A stretch of DNA of 64,000 nt from Candidatus Omnitrophota bacterium (GTDB taxonomy: Bacteria > Omnitrophota > Omnitrophia > Omnitrophales > Aquincolibacteriaceae), in contig DAOPYQ010000003.1 in NCBI GenBank assembly GCA_035352955.1, positions 76,901 to 140,900 of the forward strand. Direction: 5' to 3'. Each line of letters starts with the position of its first letter. The stretch's first letter is position 1. Position numbers and translations under genes: made by a program. Positions 2,884 to 36,835 of this stretch are shown in pieces. A model generated the notes under the pieces. It did no database searches, was not told where the DNA came from, and saw nothing but the letters and a program-made list of their open reading frames with translations.

Positions 2884-4335
2884 ATGGTATGTTGGCGCAT
2901 GGATCCGCAAATCCGTCAAACCCAATCCCAAAAGATGGTCCTCTCCCCGCAAATGCGGGAGTATCTCCGCCTGCTGCATCTTCCTCTCGCGGACCTCCGC
3001 CAGGCCGTCGAAAGCGCCCTGGAGGAAAACCCGCTGCTGGAAGAAACTCCCGGCAAAGAGGAAGAAGAGGCCGTCGAACCCGCGCCCGTTTCTCCCGTGA
3101 TGGAAAGCGACGACGAGATCGATGAAACCGAAGCCGCCCTTCCGGAATGGGCCCGAAAAGAACCGCTTTCCTTCACGCAATCCCCGTCGGACCTGGCGCG
3201 ACGCGATCCTGGGGACGCGAAAAAGATCCGGAATTTCCAGGAAACTCTCATCACCCGACCCGAAAGCCTCTTCGATTATCTCGAGTGGCAGCTCCCCTTC
3301 CTGGCACTCGACAAGTCCGAACAGAAGATCGCCGAAGAGATCCTCGGGAACATCGACCCGGACGGTTACTTGACCGCCTCCTTGGCGGAGATCGCCGCCG
3401 CCACGCACGGCACGTCGGAGCAGGTCGAAGAAGTCCTCCGGAAGGTCCAGCAACTGGATCCGCCGGGCGTCGGGGCGCGCAACCTCCGGGAAGCGCTTTT
3501 GATCCAGCTCGAGAGGAAAGGAACCCCGGTCGCTTTGGCCACAGAGATCGTCCGGGACCATCTGGACCTGCTGGCGAAAAAGGACTGGAAAATGCTGGAG
3601 CGGATCTTCAACGCAAGCGGGCCGGACATCAAAAAAGCGGTGGAGGTCGTCTCCCGGCTCGAGCCAAAACCGGGGCGCAGTTTTTATACCGAGGAAGCGA
3701 TCGCCGTCACGCCGGACGCAACGGTCTCGATCAAGGACGGTACGAATGACGGCCTGGAAATCGACCTCCATAAGGAATTCATTCCCGAGATCCGGATCAA
3801 CCCGGAATACCGGCGAATGCTCCGCGAAAAAGACACCGATGCCCAGACCCGGGAGTTCCTGAAAATGCGGCTTGCGAGCGGCCAGGATTTTTTGAAGGCG
3901 TTGGAGCAACGGAAATCGACGCTCCGTGCGATCACAGAAGAACTCGTCCGGGCCCAGCCGCTCTTTTTCACGCGCGGGTTTTCCGAGCTTCGTCCCCTGC
4001 GCCTCAAGGATATCGCCGAACGGTTGGGGCTCCATGAATCCACCGTCAGCCGCGCGATCCACGGGAAATACCTCAAGACCCCGCAGGGCACGATCCCGTA
4101 CAAAAGTTTCTTTTCAAAAAAACTTGAAACCGCGGACGGAGAAGGCGAATCCCAGAAAAGCATCCTGGAGAGGATCCGTTCGCTGGTCGAAAAGGAAGAT
4201 CCGAAAAAACCGCTGAGCGATCAGGCGCTCCTCAAGGCGCTTGAAGAAAGCGGGATCCGGATCGCGCGCCGCACGGTCGCCAAGTACCGCGACCTCCTGA
4301 AGATCCTCCCCACCCATCTCCGCAGGCAACGGTAG
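2884..4335 (+). CDS. rpoN: RNA polymerase sigma-54 factor
   Basis: N-terminal Q/L-rich region (QKMVLSPQMREYLRLLHLP), an HTH, and the C-terminal RpoN box ARRTVAKYR. The second ATG at 2899 (MDPQIRQ) is an equally plausible start. Confidence 0.95.
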   Translation: MVCWRMDPQIRQTQSQKMVLSPQMREYLRLLHLPLADLRQAVESALEENPLLEETPGKEEEEAVEPAPVSPVMESDDEIDETEAALPEWARKEPLSFTQSPSDLARRDPGDAKKIRNFQETLITRPESLFDYLEWQLPFLALDKSEQKIAEEILGNIDPDGYLTASLAEIAAATHGTSEQVEEVLRKVQQLDPPGVGARNLREALLIQLERKGTPVALATEIVRDHLDLLAKKDWKMLERIFNASGPDIKKAVEVVSRLEPKPGRSFYTEEAIAVTPDATVSIKDGTNDGLEIDLHKEFIPEIRINPEYRRMLREKDTDAQTREFLKMRLASGQDFLKALEQRKSTLRAITEELVRAQPLFFTRGFSELRPLRLKDIAERLGLHESTVSRAIHGKYLKTPQGTIPYKSFFSKKLETADGEGESQKSILERIRSLVEKEDPKKPLSDQALLKALEESGIRIARRTVAKYRDLLKILPTHLRRQR

Positions 4336-4362: not shown

Positions 4363-5115
4363 CTATTTCGGAAGGGTCCGGTAGGCGTCGCGGATCACGT
4401 TCGAAGCGATCGCCAAGGCTGCGTTATCGCCGCCCCGGCGGCCGCCGCTCACAAGTCCCAACAAATACCCTTTCCGGTCCAGGATCGGCGACCCGCTGTC
4501 GCCGCTATAAAGATGAAAACCGAAACGCACCTGCACGAAGGCCGGCCGGACCCCCTGGGGAGCGGGTTGTTTTAAAACAGCGCTGACCTCCCCGCCGAAA
4601 AGCGACCGGTTGTGGTCGAGGGCGTGCCCCATGCAATAGACTTTTGCTCCTGGCAAAAGACCGTCGGAATTCGCAAGCGGCACATAAGCGAGCGGAAACG
4701 GCGGCACGATGGAGAGAAAGGCGATATCGGTTTCCGGGATCACCTGAAGGATCCGCCCTTCGGCGCGGGTCCCATCAAAAAGTTTCACGGAGACCCCGGC
4801 CGCATCCCGGACGATATGGGCGTTGGTGACAAGGATCCCTCGCGGGTCGATAATGACACCGCTGCCGCTCCGCGCGTACTTGACGATCCTGCCGGGATTC
4901 CGGCTGAGGAAAAGCGCCGCCGTACCACTATAAGCGCCTGCTTTTTGTACGCCGGGTCCGGCCGCATTAACGCTTTCGATCGTCACCAAAGCCGCCGACG
5001 GTTGGGAGGACGCGGACCGCCCGGGAGCGCAGACCCCGGCCGACGCCCCCTCCAAGAGAAAAAAGACAAGGCACAGCAGCGCACAGACCTTCTTTGGCTT
5101 AGACAAAAGGATCAT
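4363..5115 (-). CDS. secreted trypsin-like (S1C/HtrA-fold) serine protease without a PDZ domain
   Basis: Signal peptide MILLSKPKKVCALLCLVFFLLEGASA. Catalytic motifs TNAHIV, a candidate catalytic Asp in ETDIAFL (assignment not verified by alignment), and GDSGSPI. Confidence 0.8.
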   Translation of the reverse strand: MILLSKPKKVCALLCLVFFLLEGASAGVCAPGRSASSQPSAALVTIESVNAAGPGVQKAGAYSGTAALFLSRNPGRIVKYARSGSGVIIDPRGILVTNAHIVRDAAGVSVKLFDGTRAEGRILQVIPETDIAFLSIVPPFPLAYVPLANSDGLLPGAKVYCMGHALDHNRSLFGGEVSAVLKQPAPQGVRPAFVQVRFGFHLYSGDSGSPILDRKGYLLGLVSGGRRGGDNAALAIASNVIRDAYRTLPK

Positions 5116-20733: not shown

Positions 20734-23700
20734 TTAAGCGGCCGACGCGATCCTCTGGAACGCTTCGAACAGCACCTGCATGTTCTGCAGCATGCCATCG
20801 ATACTCTTCTTCGTGATCGCCAAACCCGAGGCGCCTTCTTTTTCAAAACCCGGCATTTTCAACAAAAGATCGGCCATCTGCTCCGGCGTCATTCCGCTCA
20901 GATTCCAGATCTTCTGGGCGCCGCGCATAGCCACACGACCCACCGCAGCCTGCGAAACGGCCCCCTGAACATTGTCCGCTTCGCGAACCACCACCCCGGT
21001 GACAAAGCTAAGATTCAGAAAGCTCAGAGCATTCGCCGTACCGGTCAAGACATACCCTTTCCCTTTAACCAGGGCCAGGAACTCCGCTGCCTTGGAATTA
21101 AAATCGTGCGCTTGAGGATCAAAAACCCTGATATCCACCTGGCTGATGAACGCCGGCCGGTGGATCTTATTGGCCCACGCCGCAAAATCCAGGAGAACCT
21201 GACGCACCGCGGCAGCATCGATCCCCGAGCCCAGCACCATCGTATCAAACCGCATATTGGGGTTCAGAAGCAGATTAAACTTCAAGAGAGCCAGAAACAC
21301 CTTCGGGTCCTTGAAGCCTTCGATCACTTTCACCAGACGGCCCGCATCCCCGCTGATCGGCAGAGGCATATTCGGCACCGCATTCTGCAACTGCTCCGTC
21401 AGACCCGTAATGGTCCGCTCATCGACAAGCAATGAGATCGCGATGATCACCGGCGCGAGAGCTTCCATATTGTCGCGTGCAATCCCCTCCGTCAGCGCCA
21501 CCGCCACCTTAAGCGCCGGCGTTTTGAGCTCAGATTCCGGGATCCCCATCGCCTTCAGCGCTTCCCGTGTCGTCTCCATCGCCGTCCGGACCTGCTGCTT
21601 TGTAAAATTCTGTTCGACCCACTTGGCTACGGCAAGCTGCCTTTCGGAAACAGAAACGTCCCGGCGTTCGGCGCGCCCGGCTTCGGCGGCCTTGACCTTT
21701 GCAGCCTCCTCGAGACGCTCAGCCTTAGCCTTCGCCGCGAGAGCGAGAGCGATCGCCCGCATCTCATCAAAAGTCGCGCCCCGGTCGATCGCCGTCTTGA
21801 TCGCCACACGCCCGGCGCCCTCAATTTCAGCCAGCGACACCACCGCCGAAAGCAAGAGAACCTCCCGCTCATCCGACGTGGTCGCCTTGTCCGTAATAAT
21901 GTCGCGAAGCGAACGGAAACCAACGATTTCCCGGCCCTCGGCATCGCGGGCGGGAGCATCAAAACTATTAAAGAAATCCGTGTACTTCTGATATCGAGTG
22001 TCCGTCTGTCCCAGAATGAGCCCGGCCGCATCGGGCTTGGCATCCGCGGGAATCTTCAACACGTTCCAGAAGGCGTGACTGACCTGGTGCTTGGATTTTG
22101 CAGCCGCATTCCACACCTTGAAGTCCGCGATGTTATTGTTGTCCTCAAGCGCCAGACCCGGCACCTCGCGGCTCAGAATCTCAAGAGCTTTGTCCGAGGT
22201 CATTTCCAATTTCCCGGCGCGCGGCGACAAAGCCGTACGAACGGACGGCGCTTCGATCCTAGTGACAGCCTCCTCGCTCAGAACCCACTCCTGGGGAAAC
22301 GTATTGATCCCGGAAGTCAATTTTGTGAGATCCAGATCCTTCGGGATCATGACATTCTGCGGCGCGATCCCCCGCACCAGGTGGCGGATGTAAAGATTTC
22401 CTTCAAACGCGAACACCGCAACCACAAAATTCGCATCCAGAACAAACTGCGGATCGTTCGAGCTGACCCGGATCTCCACTTTTTTCTTGTCACCGCTCAA
22501 GCGCACATTGATACGGCTCGGAACACCTTCCAGGTCCGTCCTCGCGGCATTCACGGAAGTTTCGAGAGCCGTCGCCTCCAGTACTTCGGACTGGATCGCC
22601 AACGCCTGCTCCTTCGTGTATGTTTTGAGGCTCCGGATAAGCTCCTGAAGCTCGGTTTTCGTAGCACCTTCGGGGAACCCATACGTTTCAACGATCGTCT
22701 CCAACGTCCGCACAAGCTCCGGCCTTGAATTTTTCATGAAATACGCATTCTCAAACGCACGCACTCTCAAACCCAAATTGGTATCTTGCGGCGTGAACGA
22801 CCGCTGTCTTATAATGGAAGTCAAACGGAAAGCCTCGTCCAATTCGTTCAACGTCATCTCCCGCTTCTCTGCGCGGAGGGTGGAAAGGGCCAGCGACGAA
22901 AACAACCGGAAAGCCTCGTCGGCGCGGGCCTGATCCTCCGGAGCAACGGTAAAGAGTTTCGTTTTGATCGATCTCAGGGTCATGGAGGTATCATCCCCAT
23001 CGTCGTACTTTTGTTTCGCCATCTGGATGATCCCGACGAGGTCCATCGTCGTGATCCCCCGAGCCACACTCTCAGCTTCCGTCAAAGCGCTCAGGATCTG
23101 CGGAGGATCGATCACCCTTGAAAGATCCGAAGCCGTCAAGATGGGCTCTTCCTGTCCGACAACCGTTGGCGTCCTCTGAGCCGCAGTAGAAACCCTGATC
23201 GCTGAAGCCAGCGGCGGCACATTCGCCGCCATGGGAACATCCCGCTTCTCACTGTTGGCGCGAAGTTCCTTCGAAACAGCGGCCTTCGCGGCTTCCGAGA
23301 ATTTCCCGGTAAAAAACGGATTCAATTCCGCGAAAGTATCGCGACTGACCGAGGGCCTCCGGGCCTTCCGGTACAATTGCCACGCGCCATAGATCGCCTT
23401 AACCAACGATTCGTTGCCGGTGGCACTCTGGGTAGCCGCCCAAAACGCGGCATCGATCTCTCTGTCCGTTAAAGTCCCCTGTTGAACAACCTGCAGCGCT
23501 GTCCAATTCACCGTGGGGTCACCCTCCTCCGTCAGACCACGCTTCTCCGCGCGGATTTCTTTGCGCGACGCGGCATCGAGCATGGGACGAAGCCCGTCCA
23601 AATAGTGTTTCACGGCCGCATTGTAGGCCTTGGCTTTGAAAACGCTTGTATTGGCATAAAGATCCTTAACCGTTTTAAGAGCATCCCGGTCCAGCGGCGT

Positions 23701-26700
23701 GTCCACCGGTGTCGCGCTATCAAGTCCGACGCCTCCGTTCCGTCCTTTCCCCAAATCCGCGGCCTCGCTCCGCACCGCAGCGCCGCCGGCGTTAAACCGG
23801 TAGAAAGAGATCAGATCATCGAACAGCGCCATCCATTTTTCGGCACGCACAGCCTGCGAATTCTTGGGATCCAAGGCTCCCGCAAGAAGATCTTCCAAAA
23901 CAACGTGCTTGCGCGCGCGAACGATCTTGACAAGATCCTCAACCGTTTTCGGGGCTTCGACCAGCGCCCCAGCCGTCACAACGGTCCCCGTGGGAGTCAC
24001 GACCATCCCGGCCGTCGCAGCAACCGGAACCGACGTCATGAGCAGACCCGCAGCCGCCAGTTCCTGGATTCCGAGCCGCTTTTCCGCCCGGGTGATGTCC
24101 ACGATCTCGTTAGAACCAAGTAAAACCACCATCACACGGCCTGTTACCTGCCGGACCTCGGTACTGTTCGCGTTCAAGCCGGGCATGTGCTCGTCCCAAA
24201 GTTGACGCAAGATCGGAAAGACAATCCGCGAATTGACCGCGTAGAAATCAAGCCCTTTGAATGCGCCGACACCTTTACGCGCAACGATGGCATTCGCAAG
24301 CGCTTCGATCAGCCGGTCCTGCTCATCAGCGGCAGTAGCCAGACGCAATCTCGTCGCTAAATCAATGACCTCGGGCGCTGTGCTTAAGAATTCTATAGCT
24401 TCCAGATTTATTCCCTTCACCTCCGAGCGGGCGGGAGGACGGACCCCGAGCCGCTTTTCCGCCCGGGTGATGTCCGCGATCTCGTTAGAACCAAGTTTGA
24501 TCCGGTGAGTCACGGGACTCATGGCCCGGTTAATGACGACCCTGTAGGAAACTCCCGTCTTCAATTGTCCTTTGAGGAGCTCCTGCCAACGGAAAGTCCG
24601 ATCATCGAAAACAATCGTCGGCCCATCCGTCGTAACATGCACCGTCATCCCGATCCCCTTTGACGCATTCTTTTCCAAACGTCCCGCCAGGAAAGGAACA
24701 ACCTGGTCGGCGGAAAGTACTTCAGTCGCCAACTGGCGCGCGGCAACGACAACGTCGCGATTAGCCTCAACATGGGCAGTCTCGATCTTCCGCGCCAGAT
24801 CCTCTTTCTGAAGATCGTCGTAGAATTCGGCTCCCAACACGCCCTGCGAAATCTCCGCCGCGGAATAGCCCTTCGAATCGGACTGTTTGATCAGCTCGAT
24901 CTGCGCCGCATTCAAGCCGAAACTCTCAAGGCCCTCGGCCAACCTCGCCATAAGCTCGAAATTAACACCTCGCAGCGTCAGCGCAAGCTGCAACGTCTCA
25001 CGCTGGATCGCCAACGCGAGCCGCTGTCTCGCGCTTTTGATCCGGCCTTTAACAAGATCCCGGTCGATCGACAGGAAATCCTCGGCAAGCTCCGCGGTGG
25101 ACGCACGGTCCAACTCACTGAGCCTCTTAAACTGCGGAACCGCGCCCGTCCAGAGACGCAGCTGCAATTCGATACGTTCGGGGCTGGTTGTGAGCCACCG
25201 TTTAAGAGACTCACTCTGCTTCGGAAAAAGCGTCACAAAAGATTCGGCCAGATCCCTGAAAAGTCCGGTAAAGAGCATCGCCAAAGGTAAAAACAAAGCG
25301 ATCCCCCCCACCGCCAACGCGTACACCGGGATCCCGAGAGATGCATTAGCGAACGCCACCGCCGCCGCCACAGACACTCCGGCACTCAGGGCGAGACTCC
25401 CCCCGCGGATAACCTGCATAGTCTTTTCAGAAAGCGGTGACACCGAAGGCTCTTCGAGGGAAGATTGGTAGACCGCTGACCAGACGAACTTGAGGACTGC
25501 GCGGATCACGGTCGTAGAACCGGCCGCGATCAGCAAAAACACTGCGATAGTCGGCAGAACCGCCAGCGTACCGACTGCTGCTGCCAATGCCTGCAGAAAG
25601 AAAAACGCCGGGATCAACGCCAGCATCCAGCTGGCCGTTTCCAGGCTTCCACGAATCCCGGCTTCCCTGTCCTCACGGGCCTGTTCGGCTTGCATCGCTA
25701 CGGACATCGCCGGATTGAGCGCCGCGTTTGCGAGATTCACCTGACGGCGTTCCGCGACACGCGCGGCTTCTCCCGAGACGTAATAAGAGATCTGGTCATA
25801 AATAACCGCAAGCGACGGGATCGCAAGTGTCGCCGCGACGATCAGGGGCATGATAAAAATCCCGGTCACCCCGGCCAACACTCCGCTGATGAACGGATAC
25901 ACAAGACCGGCGATCGACGTCGCTCCGGCGGCGATATTCGCGCCCAGGGACGTTCCGATCGTCATAAAATCCTTTTTCTCGCCGCGCTTTTCCGCGCGGA
26001 TAGAAAAAGCAAAAGCATTGAAAGCTCTTTCAGCGACCGCAACGGTGATCCTGCCATCATCATCCACCTGCGGGGCGAAAAGAAGCTCCCACAAACGCGT
26101 CAGATCCGGATTAGCAGACATCTTCGGGATTTTCCCTGTCGCCCGCACCATGACCCCCTGACGTTGATGATAAGCCTCCCAGGCCGCCTGGAGGACATTC
26201 CAAACATTTTTGTCGCGTTCCACCGCCTGAGTAAGAACAGCCCTATGAAAAGCCGACTCGATCTCCACCGGGGTCGGCTTAAAATCCATCCCCATCGGAT
26301 CCTTGGCATACGCCTCAACAACCCGGGCAAAGGTTTCTTCGAGAATAGCCGCGTCCTTGATCCTTTTAGGGTCAAAACACTGCGTCTTAAGCGTCGCCAG
26401 GTCCATGTTGGCGGGCGTTCCCAGGCGCTTTTGTTCCTCTAGCCATTTGGAGTACTGTCCCATGGCTGAATCAAGAGCATCCTGGATCTTAGAGATCTTT
26501 ATTTTCTCAGGGGACTCCTCGGCCGCGTTCCGGAACGATGAGCTTTCAATTTCGGCGGCCAATTGGACCCTTTCAAAAGCCCTCCGGATCTGGAAAGATT
26601 CCAGATCCGCCCGCAGGTCCGCGCCGCGTCTTTCCGAGCGCAGACTGGACACGAACAGATCATAGGCCTCATCCACATCCGCCTGCGTGATCCGGGGTTC

Positions 26701-29700
26701 CGCGGTTTTGGGTTGACGGCCCGTCTGTTCGGTAAAAAACGACTTCATGCCGGACAACGTTAAGGCGGCTATTTTCTTGTAAGCTTCCGCTTGTCCCCGG
26801 GCAAGTGTCACCTCTTTGTTGTAAGCCTCCCAAGCCTGTTCGAGAACATTCAACGCGGAACCCGTCGCAAGGGCTGACGCCCGGTTAAAAGCGAACCACG
26901 CCCGAAGACCATTCACCGGCGTTTGCGGATTTACTCCGGTCGTTTCTTCGGCGCGTTTTTCCTGGCGCGACGCAGGCAGGCTCAATGGCTTGAGGATCCA
27001 AAGAACGCCGGCCACAGTGATGGTCGCGTTGGAAGTCGCTGTGGTGGCCCGGAGAATTATCGGCGTTTTGCGGTGACGAACCTCCATAAGAACGGCGTTA
27101 ACGCCCTGGAATTCCTCGTCGGTTAAAAACCGTCCGAGGCTCCCGCCTTTTTTACCATCCTCATATTGAACCACCGGATATTTCGCAAGGACCGCTTCAA
27201 GACGGCTCTGTTCCGCAACATTGTTGGTTTGCTGGGCCTGCGTAAGGGCTTCGGCGATCTGACCGATCTGGACCCGGACCTGGTCGGCGTCGACCTGGAG
27301 GAACTTCGCAAGATCCGCGACCTGCTTCTCGGTAAATACTATCTTCTGCTCCCCGGCAAGCTGCGTCGCCCGTTTTTCTTGGCGTCCGGCAAGTGTCACC
27401 GGGACGGAAAAAAGCGGCCGTATCTCGATCGCATTGTCCTTCATACTCACCGAATATGTTTTTTCCATCGTCTCGGGAATCGAGTCGGGAAGATCCATCT
27501 GAAGCTTGAACTGCGCCAATTCCCCGAGATTTAAACTGTTTTTCGTCAACATCTGATCGTCCCCGGAATAGTTCCCCTCAAAAATGGGGTCTTTTCCGAC
27601 GAGATCGCTGTCCCCGAATCCGAAGATCCGGAGGGCCACGGAAGTCCTGCGGCCTTTATTTCCACGCGCGGTCAGCGTCCAAAGAGTATTCACCACGCGC
27701 GGAATGTTCTCCAATTGCGTTCCGCGGAGCTCCTTGCGGCCAGCGGCATTGAGAAACCCATTCGTCCCGCCAATGATCCCGGCAAAAAGTGTCGGAGAAT
27801 TGAGAAAAGCATTTGTCATGATCGTGTAGCTCGGCGTTTGGGGAGTCGCCTGAAAACCCCGGCTCACGACCGCCCAACCATTCGTATCGGTCAACCGATT
27901 GTTCGCGACAATATAAAAAACCATGTTGGTAATGTCCGAGGAAGTCCCCATCGTCCAACCCGCGAGAACCCCAGTGGGGGTTTTCTCAAGAAAATTCATG
28001 CGAGGAGAAGCCTCAGTGGTCTCGCCTTTACCAAACGAAACAAGTTGCGTCCCCACAGGCACTTCATTTGTTGTAAAAGCACCCGCCACACTCGCTATCG
28101 AGAGAGCAAAGATCAACCCAAGTGCGCGCCACATAGCCGGCAACATTTTCAAATTAACGGGCCCGCGTTCTGACGGCGTTCCGCGGAGCTCCTTGCGGCC
28201 AGCGGCATTGAGAAACCCATTCGTCCCGCCAATGATCCCGGCAAAAAGTGTCGGAGAATTGAGAAAAGCATTTGTCATGATCGTGTAGCTCGGCGTTTGG
28301 GGAGTCGCCTGAAAACCCCGGCTCACGACCGCCCAACCATTCGTATCGGTCAACCGATTGTTCGCGACAATATAAAAAACCATGTTGGTAATGTCCGAGG
28401 AAGTCCCCATCGTCCAACCCGCGAGAACCCCAGTGGGGGTTTTCTCAAGAAAATTCATGCGAGGAGAAGCCTCAGTGGTCTCGCCTTTACCAAACGAAAC
28501 AAGTTGCGTCCCCACAGGCACTTCATTCGTCGTGAAAGCTCTCGCCGAGAGCACTGCCCCAAACGCGAGAGACACGGCCAGCAAAATCGATTGTAATCCC
28601 CGGGAAATATAGATCGGCGATTTCACAACGGGCGCCGTTTCCTCAACGCCGAGGCCAAGCGCTGTAAAAAAGTTCATACCCAACCTGACCCCCAGCGCGC
28701 TAAGCGACCTCATCAGAGTGACATCCGTAAGCACCGGCATCACGGCCAAAAAGTCCCGGATCTCCTGCGTCAAACCCGGTTCGAGCGGACGTGTCGCGAT
28801 AATGTTATTCAACTCGGCAGCGATCTTTTCTTCCTTCTGGGCCCGCGTCATGCGCTTTTCCGCGCGGGTGTACGTGACCAGGATCGCCGGATTCCCAAAC
28901 CTGGAAGGACGGATTTGCACAACAAACGGCCCCTTACCGTTAACAGCCGCTAAAGCGTTCGTCAGGCTTTCCGGACCGGAATAATTGACCGGTTGCTCCG
29001 CCGTATCGCCGCCCATGATGAGAAAAACTCTTGCGGAAGGATTCAGTTCGACAAGACGGGCCACGGCTTCACGGACCCCGTCCAGATTGTCCACCTGCTT
29101 GGGTCCACGATAGTCCCGCCCGTCGATCACAGCGTCCACCTCGCCCCTCTTTTCCGCGCGGGGAGTACCCACGTCCCGATCGTCTTGAATCACGCCACCC
29201 GCAACCGGACCCATTTTTAGTAGATTCATATCCCCCGTAGGAATTTCCGGGGATTTCATCCGCGTGGCGGGTCCGTCCGGAAAGATACTTTTGGAAAGAC
29301 TCGCTCTCTCGTTCCTGTTGCGGATCCAGCGGGCGGCCGAAACCGCTCCGGCGACAACCCCCACGCCAAGGATCACGGCGAGAGACACGCCGGTCGTAAG
29401 AAAAGCCAGTCCTGCCGCCGCCAACGCGATCGCGACGCCGCCGAGAACAATGCTGTCTTTCCAGGCAGGCTGAAAATAAACCATCGAAATTTTGGAGAAA
29501 TCGAACTTCCCCGACGTGAGATCAGGGATCTTCCACTCGGCCAGCATTCTCTTGGCCAGTGTTTCCCTTTCATTAATACTAAAAAGCCTGTCTTGTAGCA
29601 AATGGTGTGCGAAGTTCGTCCTCTCGTCCTGCAGCAGCCACGGACTTTGGGCGGTCTGGGGAAGCTCCCGCTTTTGGTCCTCAGACTTCCCGCCGTTAAT

Positions 29701-31788
29701 GGCAAGAAGCCGCATAAGCTCGTTAACTTTCTCGGGAGTGTAGATCGCGTTAAGCTTTTCGATCGCAGCCTGGCGGACCGCCGGATCCTCACTTCCCAGA
29801 TCCCTTAGCGATGCCGCGGCAATTTCATTTCCCTTGTCCAAGGTCGGCGCAAGCATCTCAGGCAAAATCTGCCCCATTTGAACGGCAATCGTGTCGTCGA
29901 CTATGGCAGTCGCACCGTCGATCCCGACCTGGTCGGGACTGACCTTGCGAAGAACGCGGTACGTTTCACCGCCCTCTTTCGCTTGGACGAGCCGCAACTC
30001 ATTGCGACGAGCCATGGGCCCGTCATTCACGTCAGGAAGGATCCCGGCAGGTGTTGGGACTTCTGCCACTTTGGTTGCGGTCGCAAGTAATTTGCCCAGG
30101 ACCCCCAGTTCCCCAACACCCTGCGCATCCTGGCCGACAGGTCCTTTGAGCGGCTGAGCGAGAAGGGTTTTTTCGACAAAAGACAGCTCGAAATTCTGCT
30201 TTCCGTCCTGGAGCATGGTGGAGCGGTAAAGTCTCTCGTCGGATTTTTCACTAAGGCGCGGGGTGACGATCCCATAGCTCACGGAATTTTCGCGGAAAAG
30301 GTCGCTCATGCCGTCCGTGTGAAAACCGCCCGTGATAAGGACGGCCTTCGTGATCTTGCGCTGGCTCATGGCGTTCTGCATTTCTTTATAGAAGACGCCT
30401 TCACGCTGACGGGCGAAACCGTAGAACTCAAGGCCGGTCTTGAACAGCTCGGTCATCTTTCCGCTAAAAGCCTTGGGCATGACCTCCTGGTCTTTGCGGA
30501 CCGAGGTATCCCCCGCGGCAATGATCGCGGTCTTCAGGCGTTCGACAAGGTTCGTCACGGTCACACGATCCCCGGCATCGACCAGCTCGCGCCACTGCGT
30601 GCGGCTCAACTCCAGATGCAAAAGCTTACGCAAAAGCTCACCGTCCCTGTAAAGGGCAAGGAGGGCCTTCTGCTGAGGCTCCTTGGCTAAGGCATCGAGC
30701 ATCTGCGTAAAAAGGTATTCAATCTCCGCGAACAGGACCTTGGGGTCAAGTTCGGCCCGGAGCGTCACGTAACCGGCAAAAAGGCTGAACGCAGGATAAT
30801 CGCTGAATTTGAATCCTTTGGGGGCGACTTCAGCGGCAAGGCGCTCGAGCACGTCGCGCGGAGAAACTTCCTGCGCGGATTTTCCGACGGAGATGCTCCC
30901 TTCATTGAAACTTTCAAGCGCGGCAAGAAGTTCTTTCGAGACGCCCTTCGTTTTGAGCATTTTGAGAAGCGCGGCCTTTTCTTCGAGTCCCTTGGCTTTG
31001 TCCAGGGACTTTTCCATTTCCTGGATGGCCAGAAGGCGCGTGATCTGCGGCCAGCCGGCCTGGGCGAAAAGGCTGTTAAGATCGACATCGAGGATTCTCC
31101 TGGACTGTTTGGCGAGCTGCTGAACGAAAGGCATGAATTCGCGGCGGCCCAGCTCGAAACGTTTCCAGTCGGCGATCAGGGCGCGCGTCTCGGGCGTAAA
31201 GACCTTGGAGGCGGCCCGGTCGAGCTTCTGATCAAATCCCTGAAAGAAACGGTTGACGTCGGGTTCGGCGCCGAACACTTTCTTCAGCGCTTCGTAGTTG
31301 GCCTTGTAAAGAGGCGCCTGCTCGATGCCGAGTGCTTCGACGTTCTTCTCGTTCTCCATCAGGAACAGTTCGGAACCGGTCAGCTCGCCCTGCTTGGCGA
31401 GTTCGTCGCACAGTTTAAGATTGCGTTCTTCATCGGGAAAAAGGCGGAGATAATCCGCATCGAGTTTGGTCGAGGCCCCTTCCACAAAAATGGTCGTGAA
31501 TCCGTATTTCTTGTTCATGTGCTCCAGAAGTTGCTTGATCTTCATCTGGGCTTGATAATTGGCGTGCGCGTTCTGGATATGAAGGATGAATTGCGGTGCA
31601 GTAGATGCGGGCGCTTCGTAAAGAGCATCGACGGTGCCGAGATCCACGGGAACATCAATGCTTAAATAAGTGGGCAGTTCTCTCTTGGACGCAATTTCGA
31701 TATTAGCACCGGGGGCCCCCCATGCGATCTGTGTCGTGAGAAAGCAAACCACGGTCGCCGCCGCGATCACCTTCAGGCCCTTTTTCAT
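20734..31788 (-). CDS. giant modular secreted/membrane-associated protein (3,684 aa), function unknown
   Basis: One uninterrupted ORF with an ATG start and GGAGGA 8 nt upstream. Signal peptide MKKGLKVIAAATVVCFLTTQIAWGA. Hydrophobic clusters are encoded near 29335-29460, 28540-28600, 28075-28146 and 25240-25980. Contains the repeated RAEKR motif and internal tandem duplications. Confidence 0.9.
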   Translation of the reverse strand: MKKGLKVIAAATVVCFLTTQIAWGAPGANIEIASKRELPTYLSIDVPVDLGTVDALYEAPASTAPQFILHIQNAHANYQAQMKIKQLLEHMNKKYGFTTIFVEGASTKLDADYLRLFPDEERNLKLCDELAKQGELTGSELFLMENEKNVEALGIEQAPLYKANYEALKKVFGAEPDVNRFFQGFDQKLDRAASKVFTPETRALIADWKRFELGRREFMPFVQQLAKQSRRILDVDLNSLFAQAGWPQITRLLAIQEMEKSLDKAKGLEEKAALLKMLKTKGVSKELLAALESFNEGSISVGKSAQEVSPRDVLERLAAEVAPKGFKFSDYPAFSLFAGYVTLRAELDPKVLFAEIEYLFTQMLDALAKEPQQKALLALYRDGELLRKLLHLELSRTQWRELVDAGDRVTVTNLVERLKTAIIAAGDTSVRKDQEVMPKAFSGKMTELFKTGLEFYGFARQREGVFYKEMQNAMSQRKITKAVLITGGFHTDGMSDLFRENSVSYGIVTPRLSEKSDERLYRSTMLQDGKQNFELSFVEKTLLAQPLKGPVGQDAQGVGELGVLGKLLATATKVAEVPTPAGILPDVNDGPMARRNELRLVQAKEGGETYRVLRKVSPDQVGIDGATAIVDDTIAVQMGQILPEMLAPTLDKGNEIAAASLRDLGSEDPAVRQAAIEKLNAIYTPEKVNELMRLLAINGGKSEDQKRELPQTAQSPWLLQDERTNFAHHLLQDRLFSINERETLAKRMLAEWKIPDLTSGKFDFSKISMVYFQPAWKDSIVLGGVAIALAAAGLAFLTTGVSLAVILGVGVVAGAVSAARWIRNRNERASLSKSIFPDGPATRMKSPEIPTGDMNLLKMGPVAGGVIQDDRDVGTPRAEKRGEVDAVIDGRDYRGPKQVDNLDGVREAVARLVELNPSARVFLIMGGDTAEQPVNYSGPESLTNALAAVNGKGPFVVQIRPSRFGNPAILVTYTRAEKRMTRAQKEEKIAAELNNIIATRPLEPGLTQEIRDFLAVMPVLTDVTLMRSLSALGVRLGMNFFTALGLGVEETAPVVKSPIYISRGLQSILLAVSLAFGAVLSARAFTTNEVPVGTQLVSFGKGETTEASPRMNFLEKTPTGVLAGWTMGTSSDITNMVFYIVANNRLTDTNGWAVVSRGFQATPQTPSYTIMTNAFLNSPTLFAGIIGGTNGFLNAAGRKELRGTPSERGPVNLKMLPAMWRALGLIFALSIASVAGAFTTNEVPVGTQLVSFGKGETTEASPRMNFLEKTPTGVLAGWTMGTSSDITNMVFYIVANNRLTDTNGWAVVSRGFQATPQTPSYTIMTNAFLNSPTLFAGIIGGTNGFLNAAGRKELRGTQLENIPRVVNTLWTLTARGNKGRRTSVALRIFGFGDSDLVGKDPIFEGNYSGDDQMLTKNSLNLGELAQFKLQMDLPDSIPETMEKTYSVSMKDNAIEIRPLFSVPVTLAGRQEKRATQLAGEQKIVFTEKQVADLAKFLQVDADQVRVQIGQIAEALTQAQQTNNVAEQSRLEAVLAKYPVVQYEDGKKGGSLGRFLTDEEFQGVNAVLMEVRHRKTPIILRATTATSNATITVAGVLWILKPLSLPASRQEKRAEETTGVNPQTPVNGLRAWFAFNRASALATGSALNVLEQAWEAYNKEVTLARGQAEAYKKIAALTLSGMKSFFTEQTGRQPKTAEPRITQADVDEAYDLFVSSLRSERRGADLRADLESFQIRRAFERVQLAAEIESSSFRNAAEESPEKIKISKIQDALDSAMGQYSKWLEEQKRLGTPANMDLATLKTQCFDPKRIKDAAILEETFARVVEAYAKDPMGMDFKPTPVEIESAFHRAVLTQAVERDKNVWNVLQAAWEAYHQRQGVMVRATGKIPKMSANPDLTRLWELLFAPQVDDDGRITVAVAERAFNAFAFSIRAEKRGEKKDFMTIGTSLGANIAAGATSIAGLVYPFISGVLAGVTGIFIMPLIVAATLAIPSLAVIYDQISYYVSGEAARVAERRQVNLANAALNPAMSVAMQAEQAREDREAGIRGSLETASWMLALIPAFFFLQALAAAVGTLAVLPTIAVFLLIAAGSTTVIRAVLKFVWSAVYQSSLEEPSVSPLSEKTMQVIRGGSLALSAGVSVAAAVAFANASLGIPVYALAVGGIALFLPLAMLFTGLFRDLAESFVTLFPKQSESLKRWLTTSPERIELQLRLWTGAVPQFKRLSELDRASTAELAEDFLSIDRDLVKGRIKSARQRLALAIQRETLQLALTLRGVNFELMARLAEGLESFGLNAAQIELIKQSDSKGYSAAEISQGVLGAEFYDDLQKEDLARKIETAHVEANRDVVVAARQLATEVLSADQVVPFLAGRLEKNASKGIGMTVHVTTDGPTIVFDDRTFRWQELLKGQLKTGVSYRVVINRAMSPVTHRIKLGSNEIADITRAEKRLGVRPPARSEVKGINLEAIEFLSTAPEVIDLATRLRLATAADEQDRLIEALANAIVARKGVGAFKGLDFYAVNSRIVFPILRQLWDEHMPGLNANSTEVRQVTGRVMVVLLGSNEIVDITRAEKRLGIQELAAAGLLMTSVPVAATAGMVVTPTGTVVTAGALVEAPKTVEDLVKIVRARKHVVLEDLLAGALDPKNSQAVRAEKWMALFDDLISFYRFNAGGAAVRSEAADLGKGRNGGVGLDSATPVDTPLDRDALKTVKDLYANTSVFKAKAYNAAVKHYLDGLRPMLDAASRKEIRAEKRGLTEEGDPTVNWTALQVVQQGTLTDREIDAAFWAATQSATGNESLVKAIYGAWQLYRKARRPSVSRDTFAELNPFFTGKFSEAAKAAVSKELRANSEKRDVPMAANVPPLASAIRVSTAAQRTPTVVGQEEPILTASDLSRVIDPPQILSALTEAESVARGITTMDLVGIIQMAKQKYDDGDDTSMTLRSIKTKLFTVAPEDQARADEAFRLFSSLALSTLRAEKREMTLNELDEAFRLTSIIRQRSFTPQDTNLGLRVRAFENAYFMKNSRPELVRTLETIVETYGFPEGATKTELQELIRSLKTYTKEQALAIQSEVLEATALETSVNAARTDLEGVPSRINVRLSGDKKKVEIRVSSNDPQFVLDANFVVAVFAFEGNLYIRHLVRGIAPQNVMIPKDLDLTKLTSGINTFPQEWVLSEEAVTRIEAPSVRTALSPRAGKLEMTSDKALEILSREVPGLALEDNNNIADFKVWNAAAKSKHQVSHAFWNVLKIPADAKPDAAGLILGQTDTRYQKYTDFFNSFDAPARDAEGREIVGFRSLRDIITDKATTSDEREVLLLSAVVSLAEIEGAGRVAIKTAIDRGATFDEMRAIALALAAKAKAERLEEAAKVKAAEAGRAERRDVSVSERQLAVAKWVEQNFTKQQVRTAMETTREALKAMGIPESELKTPALKVAVALTEGIARDNMEALAPVIIAISLLVDERTITGLTEQLQNAVPNMPLPISGDAGRLVKVIEGFKDPKVFLALLKFNLLLNPNMRFDTMVLGSGIDAAAVRQVLLDFAAWANKIHRPAFISQVDIRVFDPQAHDFNSKAAEFLALVKGKGYVLTGTANALSFLNLSFVTGVVVREADNVQGAVSQAAVGRVAMRGAQKIWNLSGMTPEQMADLLLKMPGFEKEGASGLAITKKSIDGMLQNMQVLFEAFQRIASAA
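24071..24496. repeat. intragenic dispersed repeat: two 51-nt copies (50/51 identical) 375 bp apart
   Basis: 24071..24121 and 24446..24496 both read ccgagccgcttttccgcccgggtgatgtcc[a/g]cgatctcgttagaaccaagt. They encode LGSNEI[V/A]DITRAEKRLG. Confidence 0.85.
27717..28527. repeat. intragenic tandem duplication, period 459 bp, with a 352-bp core that is 100% identical
   Basis: 27717..28068 equals 28176..28527 base for base in my line-by-line comparison. Similarity decays after that (ttgtaaaagc versus tcgtgaaagc). The antisense track ORFs 27656..27958 and 28154..28417 share identical peptides. Confidence 0.95.
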
Positions 31789-31960: not shown

Positions 31961-32689
31961 TTAAATGGTTACGAATTCAACGCCAAAACCAAGTTGCTCC
32001 TTGCGAACTTCCTCTCGACGGATCTTCCCGGCAACCTGGTACTCCTCCGGAAAATTGGCACTTGGGAAGATATGAATGTCGACCTTGAGTCCCGCAAGGG
32101 GCCCAAGAGCCGAGATCCGATGCGCCGCACCAAGGTCCAAATACTCCGCAAACAGCCCTCCTTCGCTGATATTGGTCGCGATGGCGCGCGTTTGGAGAAC
32201 CTCCCCCTTCGGGCTTGTGATCGTGAGCTTCAGCGGGATCGCCACATGCATACGATGACTGCGGCGCTTTTCGAGCTGGTGCCCCGGCGAATCCTGCGGG
32301 TTTTTTACCCCCGGCGCCATGATGCGCTTTTCCGCGTCCTTGTCAAAAAGGAACGGCCCGAAACTTTCCGCCACTTCCTTTTCGTCCGCGCACACGTCGA
32401 CCTTCCCGGTAAAGCAATTATCCTCGAGATAATGGGCCATCTCCGCGGAGGCCCCATAGATCACACTGTGCTTGGGGCGGATGCAGACCGTCAGCAGCCT
32501 TCGCAGACCGATCGCGTCAAGCGCTCCGGCCTCCTGGAAATTCAAAATGATCCTCTGCAGACGGTGGCGCCGAATGTTCTTCTGGATCTTCCAGGCAACC
32601 TCCTGCACGGATTCAAAGGTCGGCTCTCCTTTCAAGTCAAAGACAGCGACCCCTCCGATCTCTCTGGTGGAATAGTGGAATTTGCTCAT
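31961..32689 (-). CDS. STAS domain - PilZ domain fusion protein (putative c-di-GMP receptor)
   Basis: The N-terminal STAS fold (VAVFDLKGEPTF...IILNFQEAGALDAIGLRRLL) has Ala where SpoIIAA-type proteins carry the phospho-Ser (DAIG versus DSSG). The C-terminal PilZ motifs are RRSHR (RxxxR) and NISEGG (D/N-x-S-x-x-G), about 30 aa apart. Confidence 0.85.
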   Translation of the reverse strand: MSKFHYSTREIGGVAVFDLKGEPTFESVQEVAWKIQKNIRRHRLQRIILNFQEAGALDAIGLRRLLTVCIRPKHSVIYGASAEMAHYLEDNCFTGKVDVCADEKEVAESFGPFLFDKDAEKRIMAPGVKNPQDSPGHQLEKRRSHRMHVAIPLKLTITSPKGEVLQTRAIATNISEGGLFAEYLDLGAAHRISALGPLAGLKVDIHIFPSANFPEEYQVAGKIRREEVRKEQLGFGVEFVTI

Positions 32690-36700: not shown

Positions 36701-36835
36701 AATTGTCCTCGCGCCAATGCGCGAGGACTATCGCGTGCGGCCCTACGGACAACCCGCTACGCGAATTGCCTTCGCGCCAATGCGCGAGGACTATCGCGTG
36801 CGGCCCTACGGACAACCCGCTACGCGAATTGCCTC
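36701..36835. repeat. 63-bp tandem repeat (2.1 copies) in the pheS-pheT spacer
   Basis: Units start at about 36701 and 36764, with a partial third from 36827. Each contains the palindrome tcctcgcgc-caat-gcgcgagga and a second imperfect stem. The last unit overlaps the pheS stop codon and its final codons. Confidence 0.9.

What the first reader, a model, noticed from the sequence alone, without database searches (positions are those of the whole stretch)
27610..28635. Perfect 352-bp tandem duplication (period 459 bp) inside the giant gene, each copy preceded by a signal-peptide-like segment
27717..28068 and 28176..28527 are identical at every base I compared. Similarity then decays, which implies a very recent duplication, ongoing gene conversion, or an assembly artefact.

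Each 153-aa unit encodes a beta-rich domain: FTTNEVPVGTQLVSFGKGETTEASPRMNFLEK...GGTNGFLNAAGRKELRGT. A hydrophobic stretch ending in AxA comes immediately before each domain: LLAVSLAFGAVLSARA|F and MLPAMWRALGLIFALSIASVAGA|F. The second even begins with Met (codon 28144..28146).

These look like intact Sec signal peptides with signal-peptidase sites buried at about aa 1060 and 1215 of a larger protein. That would fit formerly independent small secreted-protein genes fused in frame. It would also fit signal-peptidase-type internal cleavage sites.
Basis: seen in the sequence. Interest (0 to 1): 0.65.

Follow-up and report, generated by a model that had tools for sequence, protein, structure and literature searches.

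The report
Duplicated signal-peptide cassette, Omnitrophota polyprotein-like gene
A real, perfectly copied 352-base stretch doubles one "signal peptide + small domain" unit inside a 3,684-residue Omnitrophota protein, and that protein looks like a string of separate pre-proteins joined by a repeated five-residue junction motif (R-x-E-x-R), which offers candidate processing sites for the long proteins of this phylum.

Summary
Window 27717-28068 and 28176-28527 are identical (352 nt, offset 459). They lie on the minus-strand ORF 20734-31788 (3,684 aa) of a Candidatus Omnitrophota MAG. A second MAG that differs by 3 SNPs carries the same two copies, so an assembly artefact is unlikely.

The repeat period equals one cassette of 153 aa: a basic linker, a 13-residue hydrophobic core ending AxA, a 118-aa orphan domain, and a terminal RKELR.

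R-x-E-x-R occurs 15 times in this protein against about 1 expected, and nowhere else in the window. In 48 long relatives, R-[S/A]-E-x-R occurs 242 times against 5.4 expected. All relatives are Omnitrophota and share a Tiki/TraB/EreA-like N-domain and a conserved C-terminal tail.

In relatives, the stretches between motifs hold whole ordinary proteins: glutamate dehydrogenase, malic enzyme, a response-regulator receiver. Some cassettes start with Sec-, lipoprotein- or Tat-type signals, and three Tat signals pass curated cut-offs.

Best reading: this is a polyprotein-like gene whose cassettes duplicate often. Here an older duplicate was homogenised by gene conversion. Cleavage at the motif is inferred, not shown. 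The domain itself has no homologue among 1.84 billion representative proteins.

The parts
20734..31788 (-). Long ORF of 3,684 aa (NCBI HNX68498.1, Candidatus Omnitrophota MAG). Layout: signal peptide, conserved N-domain, about 14 motif-delimited cassettes, conserved C-terminal tail.
   Evidence: No Pfam or NCBIfam family matches.
31714..31788 (-). N-terminal signal-peptide-like segment, aa 1-25 (MKKGLKVIAAATVVCFLTTQIAWGA). Its second half is unusually conserved across the family.
30007..31713 (-). Conserved N-domain, aa 26-594. The fold matches the EreA/ChaN/Tiki/TraB/RRSP superfamily. Invariant residues: H75, Q81, E103, E156, E355, R462, GGFH487-490.
28537..28599 (-). First signal-peptide-like segment, aa 1064-1084 (GLQSILLAVSLAFGAVLSARA), with A-R-A just before F1085.
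28183..28536 (-). Domain copy 1, aa 1085-1202 (FTTNEVPVG...AAGRKELR). An orphan domain.
28176..28527 (.). Perfect repeat, upstream copy in coding sense (codons 1088-1204 plus 1 nt).
28183..28197 (-). RKELR junction motif that closes cassette copy 1 (aa 1198-1202).
28078..28182 (-). Non-identical 105-nt linker, aa 1203-1237 (GTPSERGPVNLKMLPAMWRALGLIFALSIASVAGA). This is the second signal-peptide-like segment: K/R n-region, 13-residue h-region, A-G-A. Met1215 is at 28144-28146.
   Evidence: No SD upstream of Met1215.
27724..28077 (-). Domain copy 2, aa 1238-1355, ending in RKELR (27724-27738).
27717..28068 (.). Perfect repeat, downstream copy in coding sense.
29320..29457 (-). Hydrophobic stretch of 46 aa, aa 778-823 (one long or two membrane helices), between the N-domain and the first RAEKR.
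21661..30006 (-). Span that holds the other R-x-E-x-R motifs. First bases on the coding strand: 30006, 29160, 28866, 27384, 26967, 26640, 25998, 24465, 24090, 23847, 23565, 23553, 22875, 21675. Each motif is 15 nt.
   Evidence: 15 observed versus 1.1 expected, maximum 7 in 2,000 shuffles.
24066..24121 (.). 56-nt patch around RAEKR, 95% identical to 24441-24496. It sits in two cassettes that are otherwise only 35% identical in protein. This is a second conversion-like tract in the same gene.
24441..24496 (.). Partner of the 56-nt patch.
20737..21660 (-). C-terminal region, aa 3377-3684, ending ...FEAFQRIASAA. The tail pattern ...[ST]xx[AS]A is shared by nearly all complete family members.
   Evidence: tblastn matches to L017 and L024.

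Best explanation
The two identical stretches are the bodies of two adjacent copies of one 153-aa cassette. The cassette lies in the hypervariable middle of an Omnitrophota-specific, polyprotein-like gene.

Cassette layout. A cassette runs from one R-x-E-x-R junction motif to the next. Here it consists of a short basic linker, a signal-peptide-like helix ending A-x-A, a 118-aa orphan domain, and RKELR.

Origin of the perfect identity. The cassette was duplicated some time ago, because the signal-like parts and the neighbouring silent sites have diverged. Its domain part was then recently homogenised by gene conversion. That explains why 352 of the 459 nt are perfect and the rest is unrelated.

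Proposed mechanism (inferred, not shown). The long precursor is cut at or next to the junction motifs, most simply on the cytoplasmic side. Each cassette then becomes a separate polypeptide. Cassettes that begin with an export signal are exported and trimmed by signal peptidase. On this reading the duplication doubles the dose of one small secreted protein (FTTNE...RKELR).

Candidate protease. It is unknown. The conserved N-domain has the fold of a hydrolase/protease superfamily (Tiki/TraB/RRSP/EreA) and is one candidate.
For: SHOWN, the repeat:
- The repeat is exact and its period equals the distance between the two RKELR motifs.
- The same two copies occur in a second MAG that differs by 3 SNPs, and in several assemblies.
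- The F-T-T codons flanking the perfect tract differ at all 3 silent sites, and the 33 codons before them share 3-4 residues.
- A second conversion-like 56-nt patch lies around another motif.

SHOWN, the motif:
- 15 R-x-E-x-R in the protein against 1.1 expected.
- With the slightly different pattern R[ASQKN]E[KLRIM][RW], 16 matches in the giant ORF and none in any other ORF over 150 aa in all six frames of the window.
- 242 R[SA]ExR against 5.4 expected in 48 long relatives.
- Density is 1.75 per 1,000 aa in family ORFs against 0.22 elsewhere. Nearly all of the 'elsewhere' cases are adjacent paralogues or frameshifted continuations.
- Only the five motif positions are conserved.

SHOWN, the cassettes:
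- After a motif, a hydrophobic helix follows within 35 aa three times more often than background.
- These helices include AxA Sec signals, lipoboxes and Tat signals.
- 4 of 7 Tat-like signals lie within 40 aa after a motif, against 9.4% expected.
- Three internal Tat signals reach the PF10518 and TIGR01409 cut-offs.
- Between motifs, relatives carry whole proteins: a receiver domain at 1752-1873 between motifs at 1734 and 1879; glutamate dehydrogenase; malic enzyme; HEAT repeats at 3064-3145 between motifs at 3046 and 3154. No Pfam domain is interrupted by a motif.
- Recent cassette-sized DNA repeats recur in relatives, for example L014 with 302 nt at 100% and period 291, equal to its motif spacing.

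INFERRED:
- Two identical domains, each behind an N-in type signal, cannot both be exported from one uncut chain.
- Tat and lipoprotein signals work only near a free N-terminus (established knowledge of the Sec, Tat and Lol pathways).
Against: - No proteomic or biochemical evidence of cleavage exists.
- Only about 18% of motifs are followed by a hydrophobic helix.
- In copy 1 the signal-like helix lies 85 aa after the preceding RAEKR, behind two weakly hydrophobic stretches. It would not be N-terminal even after cleavage at the motif.
- The N-domain has its own signal peptide and is probably extracytoplasmic. That fits badly with it acting as a cytoplasmic processing protease.
- The fold superfamily also contains esterases and haem binders, and no Pfam model matches the N-domain.
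- Motif codons are far more uniform (CGY-TCC-GAG-NNG-AGG in relatives) than background codon usage. A constraint at the nucleic-acid level could therefore also be at work.
- Short reads cannot exclude more than two copies.
- The domain's structure and function are unknown.
Confidence: 0.55

Rival explanations
1. Assembly artefact: the assembler wrongly expanded a single-copy region, or joined strain variants.
For: - A 352-nt perfect repeat is longer than a short read.
- The ENA contig has only about 7.8x coverage.
- No copy-number variants are available for comparison. The 90% cluster holds only three members.
Against: - The 105-nt linker is unique sequence joined to the end of the repeat on one side and to its start on the other. 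Any molecule that contains it must carry at least two copies (sequence logic).
- The same structure appears in several assemblies of different contig lengths and sources, and in a MAG with 3 SNPs.
- Assemblers usually collapse repeats rather than expand them.
- Similar cassette repeats occur in independent relatives.
Confidence: 0.05
2. Ordinary multi-pass membrane or surface protein. The hydrophobic stretches are plain transmembrane helices, the chain is never cut, and R-x-E-x-R is a structural, binding or topogenic linker motif.
For: - The protein has several clearly longer hydrophobic blocks: 778-823, 1958-1997, 2051-2099, 2130-2178.
- Omnitrophota long proteins are reported to be rich in TM helices (preprints 10.1101/2023.11.21.568195 and 10.64898/2026.06.07.730766).
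- Most motifs are not followed by a helix.
- No cleavage data exist.
Against: - The two h-regions are about 13 residues long and end in AxA.
- Two identical domains would end up on opposite sides of the membrane.
- Internal Tat signals and lipoboxes in relatives have no role in an uncut chain.
- Hexameric enzymes such as glutamate dehydrogenase, and a stand-alone receiver, sit exactly between motifs.
- The motif is conserved while its flanks are not.
Confidence: 0.25
3. Simple, very recent tandem duplication with no gene conversion. The linker was created or replaced at the time of the event.
For: - Zero differences in 352 nt.
- One border is abrupt.
- Full-unit perfect tandem duplications do occur in relatives, for example L014 with 302 nt at 100% and period 291.
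Against: - A tandem duplication of a 459-nt unit should give 459 identical bases, not 352.
- The residues A-F-T-T next to the tract are conserved in protein but differ at every silent site. That indicates an older paralogous copy which was partly overwritten.
- A second partial homogenisation tract exists in the same gene.
Confidence: 0.15
4. Separate proteins arise by internal translation initiation rather than proteolysis. The start would be at Met1215, or at the x codon of the motif, which in relatives is often GTG, ATG or TTG inside an SD-like GAGGTGAGG.
For: - In relatives the motif is typically CGC TCC GAG GTG/ATG AGG. That sequence contains GAGG(TGA), and about 40% of x codons are NTG.
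- Products starting M-R-... would have textbook signal-peptide N-termini.
- The organism uses GAGGAGG-type SD sequences.
Against: - In this window the motif is CGC GCG GAA AAG CGC, with no SD-like core and AAG at x.
- There is no SD before Met1215.
- A quarter of x codons are GCG, ACG or TCG.
- Met/Val/Leu are not enriched after the motif.
- With no stop codons, internal starts would give nested products running to the end of the ORF.
Confidence: 0.07

Closest known systems
Flavivirus/pestivirus polyprotein processing (internal signal peptides cut by host signal peptidase, with a protease site just upstream on the cytosolic side). From my own knowledge.
   Same: One long ORF. The order is junction site, hydrophobic signal ending in small residues, then exported domain, as in RKELR - linker - ...SVAGA|FTTNE. 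The arrangement is repeated along the chain.
   Different: Cellular and chromosomal rather than viral. The junction motif is R-[S/A]-E-x-R, not dibasic-small. Cassettes also include cytoplasmic enzymes and Tat or lipoprotein signals. No cleavage has been demonstrated.
Tandem-unit polyproteins cut at short basic motifs: nematode polyprotein allergens, yeast alpha-factor precursor, filaggrin. In bacteria, Porphyromonas gingivalis RgpA/Kgp/HagA, cut after Arg/Lys. From my own knowledge.
   Same: Near-identical units repeated in tandem. Each unit is closed by a short Arg-containing motif. Copy number tunes the dose.
   Different: Those units are all of one kind. Here most cassettes are unrelated to each other and only the junction is shared. 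Many units carry their own export signal.
Omnitrophota giant proteins (West-Roberts et al. 2023, bioRxiv 10.1101/2023.11.21.568195; 2026 preprint 10.64898/2026.06.07.730766, 'multi-enzyme metabolic clusters').
   Same: Same phylum. Long ORFs with signal peptide and TM helices, many unrelated domains or enzymes tiled on one chain, and frequent internal repeats. Cleavage into smaller products has been hypothesised.
   Different: - This protein is 3.7 kaa, not over 10-30 kaa, and has no SecA, C39, S8 or dockerin domains.
- Those papers state that cleavage points are unknown.
- In word searches of the two preprints I found no mention of a junction motif, and the 2026 preprint treats internal signal-peptide calls as chunking artefacts.
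- A search for the motif strings across the library returned nothing relevant among the 15 papers listed.
Tiki/TraB/PrgY/EreA/ChaN/RRSP structural superfamily (relevant to the N-domain only).
   Different: No sequence-level match to any Pfam or PDB family. A large helical insertion is present. The catalytic equivalence of the residues has not been checked by superposition.
Identical intragenic repeats kept uniform by recombination in bacterial surface proteins (for example alpha C/Rib of group B streptococci). From my own knowledge.
   Same: Nucleotide-perfect repeats hundreds of bases long inside a secreted protein gene. Copy number probably varies.
   Different: Only two copies are seen. Identity covers part of the unit, and each unit has its own signal-like helix.

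Membership tests
Sec-type (signal peptidase I) signal peptide | Positively charged n-region | tested here: met
   Copy 1: K...SR before the core. Copy 2: K1214 and R1221.
Sec-type (signal peptidase I) signal peptide | Hydrophobic core of about 7-15 residues, shorter than a membrane span | tested here: met
   ILLAVSLAFGAVL and ALGLIFALSIASV, 13 residues each.
Sec-type (signal peptidase I) signal peptide | Small neutral residues at -3 and -1 (AxA) | tested here: met
   A-R-A|F1085 and A-G-A|F1238.
Sec-type (signal peptidase I) signal peptide | Located at the N-terminus of the translated chain | tested here: not met
   The segments start at aa 1064 and 1215 of a 3,684-aa ORF. No SD precedes Met1215. 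This would be met only after upstream cleavage.
Sec-type (signal peptidase I) signal peptide | Score from a trained predictor, and experimental cleavage | not testable with these tools
   No SignalP or DeepTMHMM was available, and there are no proteomic data.
Gene-conversion tract between paralogous repeats | Sharp-edged block of identity flanked by diverged but homologous sequence | tested here: met
   352 nt at 100%. The flanking A-F-T-T is conserved in protein with all silent sites different, and the rest of the unit is unrelated.
Gene-conversion tract between paralogous repeats | Other tracts in the same gene or family | tested here: met
   A 56-nt 95% patch in cassettes that are 35% identical in protein. 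Partial repeats in relatives.
Polyprotein with a defined junction or cleavage motif | Short motif recurring between otherwise unrelated units, far above chance and specific to the gene | tested here: met
Polyprotein with a defined junction or cleavage motif | Units correspond to complete, independently functional proteins | tested here: met
   In relatives: receiver, glutamate dehydrogenase, malic enzyme, HEAT and TPR units between motifs, and units with their own Sec, Tat or lipoprotein signals. For the window's own cassettes no function is known.
Polyprotein with a defined junction or cleavage motif | Demonstrated cleavage products and a cognate protease | not testable with these tools
   This needs proteomics or biochemistry. 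The N-domain fold is only suggestive.
Tiki/TraB/EreA-like superfamily (N-domain) | Shared fold | tested here: met
   [not shown]
Tiki/TraB/EreA-like superfamily (N-domain) | Catalytic His/Glu set in equivalent positions | tested here: inconclusive
   H75, E103, E156 and H490 are invariant, but no structural superposition of residues was done.
Tiki/TraB/EreA-like superfamily (N-domain) | Match to a family sequence model (Pfam TraB, Erythro_esteras, Cofac_haem_bdg) | tested here: not met
   No Pfam or NCBIfam hit at E<=1. No PDB sequence hit.
Type IV pilin (considered for the module) | Class III signal: short leader, G|F, Glu+5, with the hydrophobic helix after the cleavage site | tested here: not met
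   The hydrophobic helix lies before A|FTTNE, not after it.
Type IV pilin (considered for the module) | Sequence similarity of the globular part | tested here: inconclusive
   The single PDB hit is PilA 6xxd, E 0.017-0.04 over 57 residues. There is no profile to confirm it.
Omnitrophota 'Archaeovorin'/dockerin-type giant proteins | Over 30,000 aa with SecA DEAD, C39/S8 peptidase or dockerin domains | tested here: not met
   3,684 aa and none of these Pfam domains. Criteria are from 10.1101/2023.11.21.568195.

The most novel reading that the evidence does not exclude
This Omnitrophota family encodes true bacterial polyproteins. The family has an N-terminal Tiki/TraB-like domain, 1 to more than 15 cassettes, and a conserved C-terminal tail. 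Members range from about 935 to more than 4,000 aa.

On this reading each protein is a string of unrelated pre-proteins: cytoplasmic enzymes, and Sec, Tat and lipoprotein substrates. They are released by site-specific cleavage at R-[S/A]-E-x-R. Cassettes are gained, lost and homogenised by recombination.

The window's perfect repeat would then be a freshly converted pair of secreted-protein cassettes. The motif would supply the missing 'cleavage points' for Omnitrophota long and giant proteins.
Probability: 0.45. Interest if true: 0.85.

Novelty: new variant of a known kind. Interest (0 to 1): 0.7.

Why it matters
Omnitrophota are known for very long, multi-domain, membrane-associated proteins. 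How these proteins are made functional is an open question. Published work proposes cleavage but states that no cleavage points are known (10.1101/2023.11.21.568195).

This locus, read with 79 related loci, gives a concrete and testable candidate. It is a five-residue junction motif that is 45-fold enriched, specific to the family, falls between whole proteins, and is often followed by a real export signal.

If processing is confirmed, it would be a cellular counterpart of viral polyprotein expression. It would also be a way to co-express many proteins at fixed ratios from one ORF in a tiny genome. The motif could then be used to split such ORFs for structure prediction and annotation.

The duplication itself shows that cassettes still turn over, and that cassette dose can change in single steps.

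Tried and rejected
- A full-length protein search timed out.
- A word-indexed search with a single-copy version of the cassette found nothing, not even the protein itself. That index appears not to return long proteins, because the N-domain search listed only proteins of 1,257 aa or shorter and missed the window's own product.
- Scans of genome contigs and metagenome contigs with the module found no relative.
- The exhaustive HMMER search found only the same gene.
- phmmer of the module against 79 related family proteins gave nothing significant. The domain is therefore an orphan.
- Single-sequence AlphaFold of the module region was useless (pLDDT 32). No fold search was possible for the module.
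- The afdb50 library was not available.
- Pfam and NCBIfam on the long protein and on the module gave no hits.
- An HMM of the C-terminal 420 aa of relatives did not hit the window protein. Only the last few residues and weak tblastn matches link the C-termini.
- I first thought that in some genomes the cassette string is a separate gene next to an N-domain gene. Most such neighbours proved to be tandem paralogues or frameshifted continuations. Only L006/L043 shows a stop between the two parts.
- I rejected the idea that the motif hides a reassigned stop codon, because several different Arg codons are used.
- Literature searches for the motif strings returned nothing relevant among the papers listed.
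Full report
THE OBSERVATION

Window 27717-28068 and 28176-28527 are identical at all 352 positions, at an offset of 459 nt. Past 28068/28527 about 20 nt of partial similarity follow. Below 27717/28176 similarity stops at once.

The repeat lies on the minus strand, inside ORF 20734-31788 (3,684 aa). In protein terms the domain copies begin at F1085 and F1238. The perfect tract covers codons 1088-1204 and 1241-1357.

The three codons before the tract (F-T-T) encode the same residues in both copies. They differ at every silent site (TTC ACG ACG versus TTT ACA ACA). The 33 codons before those share only 3-4 residues.

IS THE DUPLICATION REAL?

- The exact 3,684-aa product is on record on four contigs from several sources: ENA ERZ795026 NODE_10, NCBI HNX68498.1, and JGI/IMG.
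- A different MAG (GCA_035403665.1) differs from the window by 3 SNPs in 11,620 nt. It carries both copies, and none of the SNPs lies in the repeat.
- The 105-nt linker is unique sequence joined to the repeat end on one side and to the repeat start on the other. Any molecule that contains it must therefore hold at least two copies.
- More than two copies cannot be excluded from short-read assemblies.

ORGANISM AND CONTEXT

The flanking genes are ordinary chromosomal housekeeping genes: gltBD, accBCD, pfk, thiE, pheST, thrS and mgsA. The long protein is annotated only as hypothetical, from a Candidatus Omnitrophota MAG. It matches no Pfam or NCBIfam family.

THE PROTEIN FAMILY

The first ~600 residues have 43 homologues in the protein collection. 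They also have 208 relatives among GTDB species genomes. The 79 loci kept (L007-L085) are all from Omnitrophota or unnamed MAGs.

Family members range from about 935 aa to more than 4,000 aa, and many run off the fetched loci. They share three features:
- a signal-peptide-like N-terminus;
- the N-domain;
- a C-terminal tail ending ...[ST]xx[AS]A. The window protein ends ...QRIASAA.

The middle is hypervariable. Outside the two ends, the window protein matches almost nothing in relatives.

THE JUNCTION MOTIF

Each domain copy ends in RKELR. The pattern R-x-E-x-R occurs 15 times in the window protein (mostly RAEKR) against 1.1 expected, with a maximum of 7 in 2,000 shuffles. With the slightly different pattern R[ASQKN]E[KLRIM][RW], there are 16 matches in the giant ORF and none in any other ORF over 150 aa in all six frames of the window.

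The distance between the two RKELR motifs is 153 aa, or 459 nt. That equals the repeat period.

In 48 long relatives, R-[S/A]-E-x-R occurs 242 times against 5.4 expected, with a median spacing of 225 aa. Each lineage prefers its own variant, for example RSESR nine times in L013 and RAEAR five times in L012.

Only the five motif positions are conserved, with a mild preference for a small residue at -1. Motif density is 1.75 per 1,000 aa in family ORFs and 0.22 in other ORFs of the same loci. Most of the latter lie in adjacent paralogues or frameshifted continuations.

WHAT LIES BETWEEN MOTIFS

In relatives, the stretches between motifs hold complete ordinary proteins:
- a response-regulator receiver at 1752-1873, between motifs at 1734 and 1879 (L022);
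- glutamate dehydrogenase (E 1e-58), HEAT repeats at 3064-3145 between motifs at 3046 and 3154, and malic enzyme (L084);
- a TIM-barrel enzyme and TPR repeats (L037).

No Pfam domain is interrupted by a motif.

A hydrophobic helix follows a motif within 35 aa in 18% of cases, against 6% background. These helices include textbook Sec signals ending AxA, lipoboxes (LALGC, LTGC) and twin-arginine signals.

Four of seven Tat-like signals lie within 40 aa after a motif, where 9.4% is expected. Three internal Tat signals reach the curated cut-offs of PF10518 and TIGR01409. In many relatives the first motif and the first such helix follow the N-domain directly, with no membrane span in between.

The simplest reading is a string of [signal - protein - motif] units, that is, a polyprotein.

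THE TWO HYDROPHOBIC STRETCHES IN THE WINDOW

Both stretches have basic residues, a 13-residue core and A-x-A before F-T-T-N-E. The cores are short for membrane spans.

If both stretches were uncleaved spans in one chain, the two identical domains would sit on opposite sides of the membrane. Met1215 has no Shine-Dalgarno sequence, although real starts in the window have GAGGAGG or AGGAG. Independent translation is therefore not supported.

One complication remains. The first stretch lies 85 aa after the preceding RAEKR, behind two weakly hydrophobic segments. Copy 1 is thus a less clean 'pre-protein' than copy 2.

HOW THE REPEAT AROSE

A fresh duplication of a 459-nt unit would give 459 identical bases. 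Instead, 352 are perfect, the adjacent conserved residues differ at silent sites, and the rest is unrelated. That pattern fits an older duplicate that was recently overwritten by gene conversion.

A second tract of this kind exists in the same gene. A 56-nt patch around RAEKR (24066-24121 versus 24441-24496) is 95% identical, in two cassettes that share only 35% protein identity.

Relatives show the same behaviour:
- L014 has 302 nt at 100% with period 291, equal to its motif spacing.
- L014 also has 348 nt at 96% with period 336.
- L008 has 660 nt at 99% with period 2,283.

THE DOMAIN ITSELF

No homologue was found by any of these searches:
- the word-indexed search;
- the genome and metagenome scans;
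- exhaustive HMMER over 1.84 billion representatives, which found only the same gene;
- phmmer against the related family proteins.

The only lead is a weak match to Thermus PilA (6xxd), with E 0.017-0.04. The pilin-type signal is not present. The structure prediction failed.

MECHANISM: SHOWN VERSUS INFERRED

Shown: the repeat, its reproducibility, the cassette unit, the motif statistics, the export signals and whole proteins in cassettes of relatives, and the N-domain fold.

Inferred: cleavage at or next to the motif, export of signal-bearing cassettes, and trimming by signal peptidase.

The protease is unknown. The N-domain is a candidate by fold and by constant co-occurrence, but it probably lies outside the cytoplasm. 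A trypsin-like peptidase gene lies 16 kb away.

UNEXPLAINED

In relatives, motif codons are much more uniform (CGY-TCC-GAG-NNG-AGG) than background codon usage, and they often form an SD-like GAGGTGAGG. The window's version (CGC GCG GAA AAG CGC) does not.

COMPARISON WITH WHAT IS KNOWN

Two preprints on Omnitrophota giant proteins describe many TM helices, tiled enzymes and frequent repeats. One hypothesises cleavage but says cleavage points are unknown. In word searches of those two preprints I found no mention of this motif, and a library-wide search for the motif strings returned nothing relevant among the papers listed.

The closest working analogies are flavivirus-type polyproteins with internal signal peptides, and tandem-unit polyproteins cut at short basic motifs.

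VERDICT

- The duplication alone is ordinary.
- The architecture it exposes is a new variant of a known kind and is directly testable.

Noticed in passing
window 21661-30006 (minus strand); L006-L085: An R-[S/A]-E-x-R junction motif (RAEKR in the window) punctuates the long protein and its Omnitrophota relatives. There are 15 against 1.1 expected here, and 242 against 5.4 expected in 48 relatives. The motif is specific to this gene family.
   Followed up: yes
L007-L085 motif codons; window motifs listed: Motif codons are far more uniform than background. Relatives use CGY-TCC-GAG-NNG-AGG/CGG, which often reads GAGGTGAGG (SD-like) and gives TGA in the +1 frame. The window uses CGC GCG GAA AAG CGC. 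This could reflect a nucleic-acid-level constraint or concerted evolution. It is unexplained.
   Followed up: partly
window 24066-24121 and 24441-24496: A 56-nt patch of 95% identity around RAEKR lies in two cassettes that are otherwise only 35% identical in protein. This is a second conversion-like tract in the same gene.
   Followed up: partly
L037 (~aa 3083), L048 (~aa 687), L019 (~aa 807), L021 (aa 659, 1331), L050 (aa 1313), L013 (aa 895): Twin-arginine signals and lipoboxes lie deep inside long ORFs of relatives, usually just after a junction motif. Three of the Tat signals pass the PF10518 and TIGR01409 cut-offs.
   Followed up: yes
L084 aa 2176-2619 and 3607-3857; L022 aa 1752-1873; L037 aa 1938-2187: Whole housekeeping-type proteins are embedded as cassettes in family members: glutamate dehydrogenase, malic enzyme, a CheY-like receiver, and a TIM-barrel enzyme.
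   Followed up: partly
[not shown]
   Followed up: partly
window 20737-20800 (minus strand); C-termini of P0004-P0042 and L007-L082: Nearly all complete family members end in an amphipathic helix with the tail ...[ST]xx[AS]A (for example RIASAA, RLAASA, TAAAA). This may be a C-terminal sorting or degradation signal.
   Followed up: no
L006 8001-19222 (= L043): In one relative the N-domain protein (1,073 aa) stops, and a 3,386-aa motif-rich ORF starts 45 nt later in another frame. This could be a split gene, a frameshift or an assembly error. It also contains a tandem ~104-aa 'motif-TM-domain' cassette pair at about 65% identity.
   Followed up: partly
window 36701-36834: A 63-nt tandem repeat (2.1 copies, 97% identity) lies at the pheS 3' end and the pheS-pheT intergenic region.
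   Followed up: no
window 4363-5115 (minus strand): A 250-aa trypsin-like serine peptidase gene (Pfam Trypsin_2) lies 16 kb from the long gene. It is a conceivable Arg-specific processing enzyme, but this is pure speculation.
   Followed up: no
window 27715-28173 (+ strand): A 152-aa ORF on the opposite strand spans exactly one repeat period. There is no evidence that it is coding, and I take it to be a shadow of the minus-strand gene.
   Followed up: no
window 31961-32689 (minus strand); L005 1693-2430: A STAS + PilZ domain gene lies immediately upstream of the long gene. This arrangement is conserved in the closest relative (P0001 locus).
   Followed up: no
tool behaviour: The word-indexed protein search returned no protein longer than 1,257 aa and missed the window's own 3,684-aa product. 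The family at first looked like ~1,000-aa proteins. The genome scan showed that many members are 2,000 to more than 4,000 aa.
   Followed up: yes
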